This document shows positions 1 to 3,809 of a stretch of 3,809 bases of DNA, one piece after another (positions within the stretch are counted from its first letter, which is position 1; each line of letters opens with the position of its first letter). A program made the position numbers and the translations under genes. This stretch comes from Naegleria gruberi (lineage: Eukaryota): assembly GCA_000004985.1 (NCBI GenBank), contig GG739206.1; one strand, 5' to 3'. The notes under the pieces are model-generated. The model did not search any database and had not been told where the DNA came from. It saw only the letters and a program-made list of their open reading frames with translations.

Positions 1-1259
1 AGATCATGATCGATACATTCTCCATGGGATGAACATGTACTGGAATCATTAGCTGAAATGTTGAAACAAATTGGAATTTCACATTGCATTCCAGTATATC
101 CTTCATGACATTGACATTGATCTGGTTTTTGACAAATACCATGTGAAAAACAAACAGGTTGGTTGGTGGCATTTATACCAAAACATATTGGAATGGAGCA
201 ATTGAGTCCTGTATAATTTGAATGACACATACATTCATTATATTGAATACATTGTCCATTACCATTACACGACTGAGTTTCATTTGATGGAATTCCAAAA
301 CAAAGTGGAATTTCACATTGTAATCCAATATGATTTTCATGACATTTACAATTATTTGGAGAATAACATTCACCAAATCCATTACACACTGATTGATTGG
401 AAGCATCAATGTTGTAACAAATTGCCATGGAACAATTTTCAGCTGTATATCCTTCAAAACACGAACAGTTATTTGGAGCCAAACATTGTCCATGTGAAGA
501 ACAAACCACTGACTGACTGGAATCTAATCCATAACATATTGGGAGTGAACAATTCAATGCGGCGGTGTATCCATCATGACAAGAACAGTTATTGAACTCA
601 ATGCATTCTCCATGAGATGAACATGTACTGGAATCATTAGCTGGAATATTGAAACAAATTGGAATTTCACATTGCATTCCAGTATATCCTTCATGACATT
701 GACATTGATCTGGTGCTTGACAAACGCCATGTGAAAAACAAACATGACTTTGATCAGTGGCATTAATTCCAAAACATATTGGAATGGAGCAATTGAGTCC
801 TGTAAAATCTAAATGACACACACATTCATTATATTGAATACATTGTCCATTACCATTACACGACTGAGTTTCATTTGCTGGAATTCCAAAACAAAGTGGA
901 ATTTCACATTGTAATCCCACATGATTTTCATGACATTTACAATTATTTGGAAAAGTACATTCACCAAATCCACTACATACTGAACTATTGGAAGCATCAA
1001 TATTGTAACAAATTGGAATGGAGCAATTATCAGATGTAAATCCTTCATGACATGAACAATTATTTGGTGATAGGCAATCACCATGTGAAGAACAAACTAA
1101 AACGTCGGAACTGTTGAGAGCATAGCAAACTGGACTGGAGCAGTCAATATCCACATAACTAGGCATGCAACTGCAATTGTTATGATCAATACAAGAACCA
1201 TGGCTTGAGCATACCAAGCTATAATTTGCTAATATTTCAAAGCAAATTGGCACTTGGCA
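1..1259 (-). repeat. Two complete 588-bp higher-order repeat copies (1259->672 and 671->84), plus the start of the next copy at 83->1. Each unit is 117 or 120 bp.
   Basis: Unit tops on the minus strand are 1259 (A-like, divergent), 1142 (B-like, divergent), 1025 (C), 908 (D), 791 (E), 671 (A), 551 (B), 434 (C), 317 (D), 200 (E) and 83 (A). There is an exact 65-nt match between 61..125 and 649..713, which is 588 bp apart. The protein-level unit order A-B-C-D-E is the same as in the array above the gap. Confidence 0.85.
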
Positions 1260-1580
1260 TTCTAGTCCTGTATATCCAGTGTCACATTGACAAGTATCCC
1301 AATTCACACATTTACCATGTGAAGAACATATTGAACTTGAATTAGTTCCATTAATACCATAGCAAATAGGAATAGAACATGTCAAACCAGTAAATCCCAA
1401 TTGACATTGGCATTCATCAACGGATTGGCAGGAACCGTGAGAAGAACATACATTGGAATCATTAGCTGGAATGTTGTAACAGAGAGGAGTTTCACATTGT
1501 GATCCAATGTGATTCTCTGAACAAGAACATTGATTTGGAGATGTGCATTCACCGAAAGAATTACAAGCTGAACGGTTGTT
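1..1580 (-). CDS. Continuation of the same tandem EGF-like-domain protein (the same gene, or at least the same exon family). Partial: it enters from the N gap and continues past position 1.
   Basis: I translated the minus strand by hand from 1580 down to 1 in the frame whose codons end at coordinates congruent to 2 mod 3 (1580 itself is the first base of the first codon, 1580-1578). There are 526 consecutive sense codons and no stop, reading NNRSACNSFGECTSPNQCSCSENHIGSQ|CETPLCYNIPANDSNVCSSHGSCQSVDECQCQLGFTGLT|CSIPICYGINGTNSSSICSSHGKCVNWDTCQCDTGYTGLE|CQVPICFEILANYSLVCSSHGSCIDHNNCSCMPSYVDID|CSSPVCYALNSSDVLVCSSHGDCLSPNNCSCHEGFTSDN|CSIPICYNIDASNSSVCSGFGECTFPNNCKCHENHVGLQ|CEIPLCFGIPANETQSCNGNGQCIQYNECVCHLDFTGLN|CSIPICFGINATDQSHVCFSHGVCQAPDQCQCHEGYTGMQ|CEIPICFNIPANDSSTCSSHGECIEFNNCSCHDGYTAALN|CSLPICYGLDSSQSVVCSSHGQCLAPNNCSCFEGYTAEN|CSMAICYNIDASNQSVCNGFGECYSPNNCKCHENHIGLQ|CEIPLCFGIPSNETQSCNGNGQCIQYNECMCHSNYTGLN|CSIPICFGINATNQPVCFSHGICQKPDQCQCHEGYTGMQ|CEIPICFNISANDSSTCSSHGECIDHDL. 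The unit types are the same as those above the gap. The track does not list this frame because it has no stop inside the window. The mod-1 frame that the track carries through the gap (1382..1580 of ORF 1382..3655, 'TTVQLVILSVNAHLQ...') is the wrong frame here. Confidence 0.9.
84..200 (-). other. Representative single EGF-like domain (E-type unit, 39 aa): CSIPICFGINATNQPVCFSHGICQKPDQCQCHEGYTGMQ.
   Basis: This unit has the canonical EGF cysteine framework. Its first Cys is the terminal Cys of the preceding domain and 'SIPI' is the inter-domain linker. It then runs Cys-x10-Cys-x5-Cys-x5-Cys-x-Cys, followed by an 8-residue loop containing G-Y-x-G before the next Cys. N-A-T and N-Q-P lie in the first loop. 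Confidence 0.8.
1260..1580 (-). repeat. A more divergent partial higher-order repeat copy next to the gap: a C-like tail, a D-like unit and an E-like unit.
   Basis: The units CETPLCYNIPANDSNV...QLGFTGLT (1496->1380) and CSIPICYGINGTNSSS...DTGYTGLE (1379->1260), plus the partial ...NSFGECTSPNQCSCSENHIGSQ (1580->1497), keep the 6-Cys scaffold and the unit order. Their loop sequences differ much more from the canonical D and E units than the other copies differ from each other. Confidence 0.7.
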
Positions 1581-2554
1581 NNNNNNNNNNNNNNNNNNNN
1601 NNNNNNNNNNNNNNNNNNNNNNNNNNNNNNNNNNNNNNNNNNNNNNNNNNNNNNNNNNNNNNNNNNNNNNNNNNNNNNNNNNNNNNNNNNNNNNNNNNNN
1701 NNNNNNNNNNNNNNNNNNNNNNNNNNNNNNNNNNNNNNNNNNNNNNNNNNNNNNNNNNNNNNNNNNNNNNNNNNNNNNNNNNNNNNNNNNNNNNNNNNNN
1801 NNNNNNNNNNNNNNNNNNNNNNNNNNNNNNNNNNNNNNNNNNNNNNNNNNNNNNNNNNNNNNNNNNNNNNNNNNNNNNNNNNNNNNNNNNNNNNNNNNNN
1901 NNNNNNNNNNNNNNNNNNNNNNNNNNNNNNNNNNNNNNNNNNNNNNNNNNNNNNNNNNNNNNNNNNNNNNNNNNNNNNNNNNNNNNNNNNNNNNNNNNNN
2001 NNNNNNNNNNNNNNNNNNNNNNNNNNNNNNNNNNNNNNNNNNNNNNNNNNNNNNNNNNNNNNNNNNNNNNNNNNNNNNNNNNNNNNNNNNNNNNNNNNNN
2101 NNNNNNNNNNNNNNNNNNNNNNNNNNNNNNNNNNNNNNNNNNNNNNNNNNNNNNNNNNNNNNNNNNNNNNNNNNNNNNNNNNNNNNNNNNNNNNNNNNNN
2201 NNNNNNNNNNNNNNNNNNNNNNNNNNNNNNNNNNNNNNNNNNNNNNNNNNNNNNNNNNNNNNNNNNNNNNNNNNNNNNNNNNNNNNNNNNNNNNNNNNNN
2301 NNNNNNNNNNNNNNNNNNNNNNNNNNNNNNNNNNNNNNNNNNNNNNNNNNNNNNNNNNNNNNNNNNNNNNNNNNNNNNNNNNNNNNNNNNNNNNNNNNNN
2401 NNNNNNNNNNNNNNNNNNNNNNNNNNNNNNNNNNNNNNNNNNNNNNNNNNNNNNNNNNNNNNNNNNNNNNNNNNNNNNNNNNNNNNNNNNNNNNNNNNNN
2501 NNNNNNNNNNNNNNNNNNNNNNNNNNNNNNNNNNNNNNNNNNNNNNNNNNNNNN
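1581..2554. other. Assembly gap: a run of 974 N inside the EGF-repeat coding array.
   Basis: Uninterrupted n characters. Both flanks are minus-strand EGF-repeat coding sequence. The coding phase differs across the gap: codon ends are congruent to 1 mod 3 above and to 2 mod 3 below. The stated gap length therefore cannot be the true length if this is one exon. Confidence 0.95.
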
Positions 2555-3809
2555 AATAGCTGGAATATTGAAACAAATTGGAATTTCACATTGCATTCCA
2601 GTATATCCTTCATGACATTGGCATTGATCTGGTTTTTGACAAATACCATGTGAAAAACAAACATGACTTTGATTAGTAGCATTAATTCCAAAACATATTG
2701 GAATTGAACAGTCTATTCCTGTATAATCTGAGTGGCACACACACTCGTTATATTGAATACATTGTCCGTTACCATTGCAAGCTTGAGTTTCATTTGATGG
2801 CACGCCAAAACAAATTGGAATTTCACATTGTAATCCAATATGATTTTCATGACATTTACAATTATTTGGAGAATAACATTCACCAAATCCACTACATACT
2901 GAACTATTGGAAGCATCTATGTTGTAACAAATTGGAATGGAACAATTATCGAATGTAAAACCATCAAAACATGTACAGTTATTTGGAGCCAAACATTGAC
3001 CATGTGAAGAACAAACCATTGATTGACTAGAATCTAATCCATAACATATTGGAAGGGAGCAATTCAATGCAGCAGTGTATCCATCATGACATGTGCAAAG
3101 ATTATGGTCGATACATTCTCCATGGAATGAACATGTGCTGGAATTGGTTGCTGGAATGTTGAAACAAATTGGAATTTCACATTGCATTCCAGTATATCCT
3201 TCATGACATTGACATTGATCTGGTGCTTGGCAAACGCCATGCGAAGAACAAACAGTTGGGTTGGTGGCATTACTTCCAAAACATATTGGAATTGAACAGT
3301 CTATTCCTGTATAATCTGAATTACACACACATTCATTATATTGAATACATTGTCCATTACCATTACACGACTGAGTTTCATTTGATGGAACTCCAAAACA
3401 AATTGGAATTTCACATTGTAATCCAATATGATTTTCATGACATTTACAATTATTTGGAGAATAACATTCACCAAATCCATTACACACTGATTGATTGGAA
3501 GCATCAATATTGTAACAAATTGGAATTGAACAATTATCGAATGTAAAACCATCAAAACATGAACAATTATTTGGAGCCAAACATTGTCCATGTGAAGAAC
3601 AAACAATTAGCTGACTAGAATCTAATCCATAACATATTGGAAGGGAGCAATTCAATGCAGCAGTGTATCCATCATTACATATACAAAGATCATGATCAAC
3701 GCAGTTACCATGTCCATAACAAGAATGTGAAAAATTGGCAGGAACATTGAAACAAATTGGAATTTCACAATTGACACCTGTATAACCATTCTGACAGGTA
3801 CAGGTATTA
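2555..3809 (-). CDS. Internal fragment of a large extracellular-type protein built from tandem EGF-like domains (tenascin/teneurin-like 6-Cys EGF array). It is partial at both ends: it continues upstream beyond 3809 and downstream into the N gap.
   Basis: I translated the minus strand by hand; codons end at coordinates congruent to 1 mod 3. Position 3809 is the third base of a split codon, so full codons run 3808 down to 2555. Reading from 3808 downward gives NTCTCQNGYTGVN|CEIPICFNVPANFSHSCYGHGNCVDHDLCICNDGYTAALN|CSLPICYGLDSSQLIVCSSHGQCLAPNNCSCFDGFTFDN|CSIPICYNIDASNQSVCNGFGECYSPNNCKCHENHIGLQ|CEIPICFGVPSNETQSCNGNGQCIQYNECVCNSDYTGID|CSIPICFGSNATNPTVCSSHGVCQAPDQCQCHEGYTGMQ|CEIPICFNIPATNSSTC..., ending at the gap with ...CEIPICFNIPAI. 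There is no stop anywhere. The track's ORF 1382..3655 starts only at an internal TTG (3653-3655) shown as M; the frame is actually open up to 3809, with 3656-3808 encoding ...GHGNCVDHDLCICNDGYTAALN. Cys spacing is invariant, with 6 Cys per 39-40 aa unit. Confidence 0.9.
2591..3769 (-). repeat. Two complete copies of a 5-unit higher-order coding tandem repeat (A-B-C-D-E EGF-like units): 3769->3182 is 588 bp and 3181->2591 is 591 bp. Partial copies flank them at 3770..3809 and 2555..2590.
   Basis: First-Cys codons of the units sit at minus-strand tops 3769, 3649, 3532, 3415, 3298 for copy 1 and 3181, 3061, 2944, 2827, 2710, 2590 for copy 2. The 53-mer ggaatttcacattgcattccagtatatccttcatgacattgacattgatctgg is exact at 3171..3223 and also at 73..125 and 661..713; at 2580..2632 it has one mismatch. 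The 3-bp length difference comes from an extra residue in the first Cys-Cys loop of the second E unit (NATNQSHVC versus NATNPTVC). Confidence 0.85.

What the first reader, a model, noticed from the sequence alone, without database searches (positions are those of the whole stretch)
1..1580. A 526-codon stop-free coding frame that the ORF track does not show
Hand translation of the minus strand in the frame whose codon ends are congruent to 2 mod 3 gives 526 sense codons from 1580 down to 1 with no stop. They encode 13.7 EGF-like domains. The supplied track apparently lists only ORFs that have a stop inside the window, so the one real gene below the gap is invisible. Instead the track offers out-of-frame minus ORFs (173..493, 554..772, 809..1084) and antisense plus ORFs (218..595). 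Anyone relying on the track would mis-annotate this half of the window.
Basis: seen in the sequence. Interest (0 to 1): 0.5.

Follow-up and report, generated by a model that had tools for sequence, protein, structure and literature searches.

The report
Protist EGF-repeat gene fragment, both ends open
The window is an internal piece of an ordinary eukaryotic (Naegleria-like protist) gene for a long, cysteine-rich, sugar-coated chain of EGF domains, and the ORF list misses it only because the reading frame runs off both ends of the sequence.

Summary
The minus strand from 1580 to 3 is 526 sense codons with no stop. The chance of this is about 1e-16, and the longest open run in 2000 shuffles was 180 codons.

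The product is a pure tandem array of EGF-like domains. Pfam gives EGF_TEN 1.9e-48 and 13 EGF_2 stretches. All 144 cysteines keep one spacing. The AlphaFold model has pLDDT 94, and its best solved matches are Jagged, Delta and Notch EGF arrays.

There are 22 full and 4 partial units. Five unit types (A to E) form a super-repeat of 196-197 aa present at least four times. Copies differ with dN/dS of 0.13-0.37, so the frame is under purifying selection.

The closest relatives (39-48% identity) are uncharacterised EGF-array proteins of Naegleria, Willaertia and uncultured eukaryotes. Most carry a membrane-spanning segment after the array. The source is not in any searchable collection.

The listed out-of-frame and antisense ORFs have no family matches. 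This is a new member of a known kind, and interest is low.

The parts
3..1580 (-). Open coding frame of 526 codons with no start and no stop. It holds EGF-like units L0 (partial), L1-L12 (full) and L13 (partial).
   Evidence: no stops; Pfam EGF_TEN 1.9e-48, EGF_2 in 13 stretches; cysteine spacing and unit boundaries
2555..3808 (-). Open coding frame of 418 codons belonging to the same repeat protein. It lies N-terminal to the part below the gap. It holds units R0 (partial), R1-R10 (full) and R11 (partial).
   Evidence: no stops; the other frames have 8-47 stops; EGF_TEN 2.8e-42
1581..2554 (.). Assembly gap of 974 N. Its length is not a multiple of 3, so the frame appears to shift across it. 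The flanks end in unit type A (right) and a C-like unit (left). The smallest fill that keeps the A-E order is 234 bp, or 825 bp with one more super-repeat.
   Evidence: N run; unit types at the gap edges; the fill sizes are inference
3167..3754 (-). Super-repeat copy 1 (units A-B-C-D-E, R1-R5)
2576..3166 (-). Super-repeat copy 2 (units A-B-C-D-E, R6-R10)
1128..1481 (-). Three divergent EGF units (L1-L3). They are 33-58% identical to all other units and fall outside the A-E scheme.
657..1127 (-). Super-repeat copy 3, units B-C-D-E only (L4-L7)
69..656 (-). Super-repeat copy 4 (units A-B-C-D-E, L8-L12). This is the stretch whose structure was predicted.

Best explanation
The window is an internal fragment of one protein-coding gene of an AT-rich, intron-poor eukaryote, most likely a heterolobosean amoeba close to Naegleria or Willaertia. 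It is read on the minus strand across the whole window and interrupted only by an assembly gap.

The visible 944 codons encode only tandem EGF-like domains that do not bind calcium. Each unit is 39-40 aa with the pattern C1-x10/11-C2-x5-C3-x5-C4-x-C5-x8/9-C6, joined to the next by a four-residue linker, usually [E/S]-I-P-I. Five unit types form a super-repeat of 196-197 aa that was amplified at least four times, probably with gene conversion between copies.

Shown: the coding frame, the domain identity, the fold, purifying selection and the repeat hierarchy.

Inferred by analogy with the nearest relatives (signal peptide, often an NHL, Kelch or RCC1 propeller, then an EGF array, one membrane-spanning helix and a short tail or a kinase): the array is extracellular, disulfide-locked and heavily N-glycosylated. 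It would act as a stiff stalk that holds a binding domain away from the cell surface, or would itself mediate adhesion. The repeats are also the likely cause of the assembly gap.
For: - Open frames of 526 and 418 codons against 8-64 stops in the other frames. The chance is about 1e-16 and 6e-14, and the longest open run in shuffles was 180 codons.
- Pfam: EGF_TEN 1.9e-48 and 2.8e-42, EGF_Teneurin in 11 and 9 stretches, EGF_2 in 13 and 10 stretches, all far above the curated cut-offs.
- All 144 cysteines keep one spacing pattern and no unit is broken.
- Units fall into five types, 66-97% identical within a type (65-70% for the outlying unit R1 of type A) and 30-56% between types, in a fixed order A-B-C-D-E. 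The DNA period is 588/591 bp.
- dN/dS among super-repeat copies is 0.13-0.37, with differences concentrated at third codon positions.
- The AlphaFold2 model of one super-repeat has pLDDT 94.2 and five repeated helix-turn plus beta-hairpin units. Its best solved matches are the EGF arrays of Jagged-1, DLL1, DLL4, Notch1 and integrin beta, at E about 1e-9. By sequence the best PDB match is the WIF-1 EGF array, 3.2e-08.
- N-x-S/T sequons number 25 and 15 against 8.5 and 5.7 expected. By my reading of the unit list, 19 of 22 full units have one in the C1-C2 loop.
- The nearest proteins are from Naegleria lovaniensis, N. gruberi, N. fowleri, Willaertia magna and uncultured eukaryotes, at 39-48% identity. 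Their sequences show a signal peptide, an NHL domain, an EGF array and a membrane-spanning segment. A hydrophobic segment follows the array in 33 of 58.
- The contig of the best hit carries VPS11, ubiquitin, RhoGEF and ankyrin genes, so it is eukaryotic.
- Window GC is 34.8% against 34.5% for L001. Codon usage correlates at r = 0.81 with the P0001 gene and 0.73 with N. lovaniensis exons.
Against: - Neither end of the gene is in the window, so no signal peptide, membrane anchor or partner domain is seen. Extracellular location and the stalk role rest on analogy.
- The two halves are in different frames relative to the stated gap length (974 is not a multiple of 3). They could in principle be two tandem paralogues.
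- The source organism is unidentified. No collection searched holds the sequence and the best protein hit is only 42-48% identical.
- No expression data are available.
Confidence: 0.88

Rival explanations
1. The gene is real, but its product is a secreted matrix, cyst-wall or coat protein rather than the stalk of a membrane-anchored receptor. The cysteine-rich EGF cyst proteins of Giardia are an example of this kind.
For: - 25 of 58 homologues show no hydrophobic segment after the EGF array, although many of them are partial.
- The visible sequence is nothing but EGF units over 944 codons.
- A family of Giardia cyst proteins with EGF repeats is described (PMC2867935, title and abstract seen).
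Against: - The best-matching complete homologues (P0001, P0003, P0005, P0007, P0013, P0026) do have a C-terminal membrane-spanning segment.
- No Giardia protein appeared among the hits.
Confidence: 0.2
2. The window joins two separate tandem paralogous genes, or is a chimeric scaffold of two repeat-rich loci. On this reading the parts above and below the gap are not one reading frame.
For: - The frames on the two sides differ modulo 3 given a gap of 974 N.
- Units L1-L3 next to the gap diverge from the A-E scheme.
- In the relatives L001 and L003 the EGF-coding DNA changes frame along the locus.
Against: - Both sides have the same strand, unit types, unit order and codon usage.
- Copies on the two sides are as similar to each other as neighbouring copies on one side: 85-87% DNA identity in all pairs, with a 105-nt identical run between copy 1 and copy 4.
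- Lengths of N runs in scaffolds are estimates (established knowledge of assemblies).
- No stop, start or non-EGF sequence appears at either gap edge.
Confidence: 0.1
3. The array is a decaying pseudogene or a non-coding satellite whose open frame is a by-product of repetition.
For: - Tandem repetition copies a stop-free unit many times, so the probability of about 1e-16 overstates independence.
- No start, stop or expression evidence is available.
Against: - Copies have diverged by 13-15% at the DNA level, yet no stop and no frameshift has arisen.
- All 144 cysteines are kept.
- dN/dS is 0.13-0.37, with an excess of third-position changes.
- The three divergent units L1-L3 (33-58% identity to the others) also keep the full EGF pattern.
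Confidence: 0.04
4. The gene belongs to a bacterium or a giant virus rather than to a eukaryote.
For: One hit (P0029, 30% identity) carries the name of a Sulfitobacter metagenome-assembled genome.
Against: - All named close hits are heterolobosean, and the best hit lies on a contig with eukaryotic housekeeping genes.
- Scans of 185,579 bacterial and archaeal genomes and of 2.9 million viral contigs found no relative.
- No promoter- or terminator-type evidence was sought, because no gene end lies in the window.
Confidence: 0.03

Closest known systems
Uncharacterised 'EGF-like domain-containing proteins' of Naegleria lovaniensis, N. gruberi, N. fowleri and Willaertia magna, and P0001 from an uncultured eukaryote
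   Same: - The EGF subtype is the same. It has a long C1-C2 loop that usually carries an N-x-S/T sequon, then V-C-S-[SG]-H-G-x-C, C-x-C, G-Y-x-G and a 4-residue linker. Identity is 39-48% over hundreds of residues.
- These genomes are also AT-rich and their codon usage is similar.
- Long EGF-coding stretches of about 1000 aa also exist at L001 7981-11638 and L003 3176-6260.
   Different: - Their EGF units do not map onto the window's five unit types, so the A-E super-repeat is specific to the window's lineage.
- Annotated relatives have at most 12 units, against at least 24 visible here.
- Their other domains (NHL, RCC1, kinase, membrane-spanning segment) cannot be checked in the window.
EGF region of teneurins (Pfam EGF_TEN PF25024, EGF_Teneurin PF23106) and the tenascin-type EGF (EGF_2 PF07974)
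   Same: These are the best-scoring profile families: 165.6, 159.7 and 159.1 bits. They share the six-cysteine, non-calcium-binding EGF type with an S-x-H-G-x-C core.
   Different: - From my own knowledge, teneurins have eight EGF units, two with an odd cysteine for dimerisation, followed by NHL, YD-shell and toxin-like domains. Here every unit has exactly six cysteines and there are at least 24 units.
- From my own knowledge, tenascin EGF units are about 31 aa. Here they are 39-40 aa.
- None of the non-EGF parts of either family is visible.
EGF arrays of Notch and its ligands Jagged and Delta
   Same: - These are the best matches among solved structures: Jagged-1 at 1.4e-09, then DLL1, DLL4 and Notch1 EGF8-12.
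- The unit length (about 38-40 aa) and the rod of tandem EGF domains are similar.
- Pfam EGF_DL_JAG and JAG1-like_EGF2 also match.
   Different: - There is no calcium-binding consensus and no Asp/Asn hydroxylation site (0 matches).
- There are no O-glucose sites and only 2 O-fucose-type sites.
- No DSL, C2 or LNR domains are visible.
- Sequence identity is only 20-30%.
Giardia EGF-repeat cyst proteins (EGFCPs; PMC2867935)
   Same: They are protist proteins made largely of cysteine-rich EGF-like repeats (title and abstract).
   Different: No Giardia protein was among the 58 hits at E <= 1e-10. No direct comparison was made.

Membership tests
EGF-like domain (Pfam EGF_2 PF07974 / EGF PF00008) | Profile match above the curated gathering score | tested here: met
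   EGF_2 scores 159.1 bits against a cut-off of 22.1, in 13 stretches. EGF scores 46.7 against 21.5.
EGF-like domain (Pfam EGF_2 PF07974 / EGF PF00008) | Six cysteines per unit with EGF spacing, including the C4-x-C5 pair | tested here: met
   The pattern C-x10/11-C-x5-C-x5-C-x-C-x8/9-C-x4 holds without exception for all 144 cysteines.
EGF-like domain (Pfam EGF_2 PF07974 / EGF PF00008) | EGF fold (small beta-hairpins locked by disulfides) | tested here: met
   The AlphaFold2 model has pLDDT 94.2 and five repeated units. Foldseek finds EGF arrays of Jagged, Delta, Notch and integrin beta at E down to 1.4e-09. The disulfide pairing itself was not examined.
Calcium-binding EGF (EGF_CA) | N-terminal [DN]-x-[DN]-[EQ]-C motif and the C-x-[DN]-x4-[FY]-x-C hydroxylation consensus | tested here: not met
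   Both motifs have 0 matches in the 944 residues. EGF_CA is not among the Pfam matches.
Teneurin | EGF region matching the teneurin EGF profiles | tested here: met
   EGF_TEN scores 165.6 bits against a cut-off of 65, and EGF_Teneurin 159.7 against 24.3.
Teneurin | Eight EGF units, two of them with an unpaired cysteine for dimerisation (from my own knowledge of the family) | tested here: not met
   There are at least 24 units, each with exactly six cysteines.
Teneurin | Type II membrane topology with NHL, YD-repeat shell and C-terminal toxin-like domain | not testable with these tools
   The window holds only EGF units, and the gene runs off both ends. Some Naegleria relatives do have NHL or TEN_NHL matches, but they lie N-terminal to the EGF array in a type I layout.
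Tenascin | EGF units of about 31 aa followed by fibronectin type III repeats and a fibrinogen globe (from my own knowledge of the family) | tested here: not met
   Units are 39-40 aa. No FN3 or fibrinogen match was found in the window. The regions outside the window are not testable.
Heterolobosean EGF-array membrane proteins (uncharacterised; Naegleria, Willaertia) | Best reciprocal similarity and a shared EGF subtype | tested here: met
   The top named hits are all Naegleria or Willaertia, at 39-48% identity. The unit consensus is shared.
Heterolobosean EGF-array membrane proteins (uncharacterised; Naegleria, Willaertia) | Signal peptide and a single membrane-spanning helix after the array | not testable with these tools
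   Neither end of the gene is in the window. The feature is present in 33 of 58 relatives.

The most novel reading that the evidence does not exclude
The fragment may belong to an unusually long surface protein of more than 30 EGF units and more than 1,270 residues of pure EGF array, from a heterolobosean-like protist whose genome is not represented in the searchable protein collections. On this reading, its lineage-specific five-unit super-repeat is kept partly homogeneous by gene conversion. That would make it a rapidly reshuffling adhesin or coat protein rather than a static stalk.
Probability: 0.2. Interest if true: 0.3.

Novelty: new member of a known kind. Interest (0 to 1): 0.12.

Why it matters
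Biologically this is an ordinary find. EGF arrays are among the commonest extracellular modules, and relatives are already in the databases as unnamed proteins.

The practical lesson is about annotation. A mechanical ORF list that needs a stop codon inside the sequence hides the only real gene of a short scaffold. It offers out-of-frame, antisense and N-spanning ORFs instead. The same under-calling is visible in the related loci L001 and L003.

Minor interest lies in the clean two-level repeat hierarchy with traces of gene conversion. It explains the assembly gap, and it could serve as an example of concerted evolution in a protist surface protein.

Tried and rejected
- **Finding the source sequence.** An exact 48-mer gave 0 matches in viral contigs. 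Protein-guided scans of metagenome contigs, bacterial and archaeal genomes and viral contigs found no relative. The origin therefore stays unknown.
- **Tandem Repeats Finder.** It reported nothing. The 117-120 bp units are only about 60-70% alike, and the 588/591 bp period exceeds its 500 bp limit. The repeat finder and protein-level segmentation recovered the structure.
- **N. gruberi DNA for a codon-usage comparison.** Look-ups of P0004 and P0026 found no record. N. lovaniensis and Willaertia loci were used instead.
- **AFDB fold search.** The library was not available.
- **Literature.** Searches for Naegleria or heterolobosean EGF-repeat proteins found nothing specific. Two papers opened were not relevant.
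- **Non-coding RNA.** Rfam and the tRNA scan gave 0 matches.
- **Calcium-binding EGF** was considered and rejected because the motifs are absent.
- **Teneurin or tenascin membership** was considered and rejected because the unit number, cysteine count and unit length differ.
- **Orthology of unit types A-E with units of homologues** was considered and rejected because best and second-best scores are indistinguishable.

Full report
**Observation.**
The reverse complement of 1..1580 translates into 526 sense codons without a stop. The other five frames of that stretch contain 9 to 64 stops. The frame occupies 1580..3, and bases 1-2 are a partial codon. With the base composition of the stretch a random codon is a stop with probability 0.068. 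The chance of 526 stop-free codons is therefore about 1e-16. In 2000 shuffles the longest open run in any frame was 180 codons.

It does not hold the real frame, because the tool omits ORFs that run off an end. The three minus ORFs share the minus frame that has 9 stops, so they are out of frame. None of six such alternative ORFs has any Pfam match at E <= 1. Several listed ORFs, such as minus 1382..3655 (757 aa), exist only because they cross the run of 974 N at 1581..2554.

The same strand is also open above the gap. Positions 3808..2555 give 418 codons with no stop, against 8 to 47 stops in the other frames. That product belongs to the same family. The coding region therefore fills the whole window apart from the gap, and the window contains neither the start nor the end of the gene. 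The gap length is not a multiple of three, so the two halves appear to be in different frames. Since N-run lengths in scaffolds are estimates, this says little.

**Anatomy.**
Pfam matches the 526-aa product to several EGF families, all far above their cut-offs:
- EGF_TEN at 1.9e-48 (165.6 bits, cut-off 65)
- EGF_Teneurin in 11 stretches
- EGF_2 in 13 stretches
- EGF, EGF_DL_JAG and JAG1-like_EGF2

The 418-aa product gives the same list.

All 144 cysteines follow one pattern, C1-x10/11-C2-x5-C3-x5-C4-x-C5-x8/9-C6-x4, without a single exception. This gives 22 complete units of 39-40 aa and four partial ones. Below the gap there are 12 complete units plus partials of 33 and 22 residues, about 13.4 units rather than 13.7. 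The linker between units is nearly always [E/S]-I-P-I. The calcium-binding EGF motif and the hydroxylation consensus are absent (0 matches).

N-x-S/T sequons are three times as frequent as composition predicts: 25 and 15 against 8.5 and 5.7 expected. By my reading of the unit list, 19 of the 22 complete units carry one in the long C1-C2 loop.

**Repeat hierarchy.**
The units fall into five types. Identity within a type is 66-97%, apart from the outlying unit R1 of type A (65-70%). Between types it is 30-56%. The types always come in the order A-B-C-D-E.

Read in the direction of the protein, the window holds:
- the tail of an E unit
- ABCDE
- ABCDE
- the start of an A unit
- the gap
- a C-like unit
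- three divergent units
- BCDE
- ABCDE
- the start of an A unit

At the DNA level this is the 588/591-bp periodicity found by the repeat finder. Tandem Repeats Finder missed it because the period exceeds 500 bp and the basic units are too divergent.

The four super-repeat copies are 85-87% identical in DNA. Differences are concentrated at third codon positions, and dN/dS is 0.13-0.37 in all six comparisons. This is direct evidence of purifying selection on this frame.

Identity along the copies is patchy. Stretches of 98-100% identity occur, including a 105-nt identical run between the non-adjacent copies 1 and 4, next to stretches of 73-85%. This fits gene conversion or unequal crossing-over, but uneven constraint is not excluded. 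Such repeats are a sufficient reason for the assembly gap. The smallest fill that keeps the unit order is 234 bp, and 825 bp with one more super-repeat, against the stated 974 (inference).

**Fold.**
An AlphaFold2 model of super-repeat copy 4 (196 aa) was built with the other copies and 13 homologues as the alignment. It has a mean pLDDT of 94.2 and the same short helix plus beta-hairpin pattern five times. Its best matches among solved structures are the EGF arrays of Jagged-1, DLL1, DLL4, Jagged-2, Notch1 and integrin beta subunits, with E down to 1.4e-09. By sequence the best solved relative is the EGF array of Wnt inhibitory factor 1, at 3.2e-08.

**Relatives and origin.**
A search of 5.8 billion proteins found 58 hits at E <= 1e-10. 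The best is 42% identical over 90% of the query (P0001, from a 46.8-kb metagenome contig). All hits that carry an organism name and are close are from Naegleria lovaniensis, N. gruberi, N. fowleri or Willaertia magna (39-48% identity). No metazoan EGF protein made the list.

The P0001 contig carries VPS11, ubiquitin, RhoGEF, RING and ankyrin genes, so it is eukaryotic.

The relatives read as signal peptide, often an NHL, Kelch or RCC1 propeller, an EGF array, a spacer, one hydrophobic helix and a short tail or a kinase. A membrane-type segment follows the array in 33 of 58.

The window resembles these genomes in GC content (34.8% against 34.5% for L001 and 37.6% for L002). It also resembles them in codon usage (r = 0.81 and 0.73; GC3 is 0.166). 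The absence of any interruption over 1578 and 1254 bp fits an intron-poor protist. In animals EGF units are typically on separate exons (my own knowledge).

The units of the relatives cannot be assigned to types A-E, because best and second-best scores are alike. The super-repeat therefore arose in the window's own lineage.

The window itself, or anything close to it, is absent from the metagenome, prokaryotic-genome and viral collections.

Long arrays as such are not unique. In L001 the EGF-coding DNA runs from about 7981 to 11638, beyond the called gene. In the Willaertia locus L003 it runs from 3176 to 6260 in three frames.

**Mechanism.**
Shown: a selected coding frame for a rod of at least 24 disulfide-rich, non-calcium EGF domains with regularly placed glycosylation sequons.

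Inferred from the relatives and from general knowledge of EGF arrays: the array is extracellular and N-glycosylated. It would serve as a stiff, protease-resistant stalk or adhesive surface of a type I membrane protein.

A secreted matrix or cyst-wall role is the main functional alternative (about 0.2). The other readings are unlikely for the reasons listed with each rival: a pseudogene (0.04), two tandem genes or a chimeric scaffold (0.1), and a bacterial or viral origin (0.03).

**Comparison with known families.**
The domain is a bona fide EGF-like domain by profile, cysteine pattern and predicted fold. It is not a calcium-binding EGF.

It scores best against the teneurin EGF profiles, but the protein cannot be filed as a teneurin or a tenascin. 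Unit number, cysteine count and unit length differ, and the defining non-EGF domains are outside the window.

It is best filed as a new member of the uncharacterised heterolobosean-type EGF-array proteins. Literature searches found no study of these proteins.

**Verdict.**
- the gene also covers 2555..3808
- there are about 13.4 units below the gap, not 13.7
- both ends of the gene are open

The finding is an ordinary gene fragment. Its main value is as a caution about ORF lists that require an in-window stop. Interest is 0.12.

Noticed in passing
window 2555-3808 (minus strand): There is a second stop-free frame of 418 codons above the gap. It encodes the same EGF array (10 full units, two super-repeats). 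The ORF list does not show it either.
   Followed up: yes
window 1382-3655, 1499-2653, 1543-2559, 1561-2691: Four ORFs in the mechanical list (757, 384, 338 and 376 aa) exist only because they run through the 974-N gap. They are artefacts.
   Followed up: yes
window 69-656 vs 3167-3754 (and the other super-repeat pairs): Identity between super-repeat copies is patchy. It ranges from 98-100% (a 105-nt identical run between non-adjacent copies) down to 73-85%. This suggests gene conversion or unequal crossing-over within the gene.
   Followed up: partly
L001 7981-9984 (upstream of the P0001 gene at 10001-12742): About 2 kb of further EGF-coding DNA (38-40% identical to the window product) lies in another frame, where the gene caller placed only three small ORFs. 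The P0001 gene model is probably truncated at its N-terminus, or an intron or frameshift separates the two parts.
   Followed up: partly
L003 2001-7049 (Willaertia magna JBEGDK010000060.1): The gene model spans 5 kb for a 644-aa product. EGF-coding DNA is found in three different frames between 3176 and 6260. Either many introns are present or the array is under-annotated.
   Followed up: partly
window 3-1580 product, residues 435-470: There is a weak sequence match (E 2.5e-05) to a 'tubular mastigoneme protein' (PDB 9ufe). It is probably just a shared EGF module.
   Followed up: no
P0029: A 496-aa EGF-array protein is named as coming from a Sulfitobacter metagenome-assembled genome. It sits on a 2.1-kb contig, which is likely a mis-binned eukaryotic fragment.
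   Followed up: no
window 1128-1481 (units L1-L3): Three EGF units next to the gap are much more divergent than the rest (33-58% identity to all others) and break the A-E order. They may mark the older, unamplified part of the array.
   Followed up: partly
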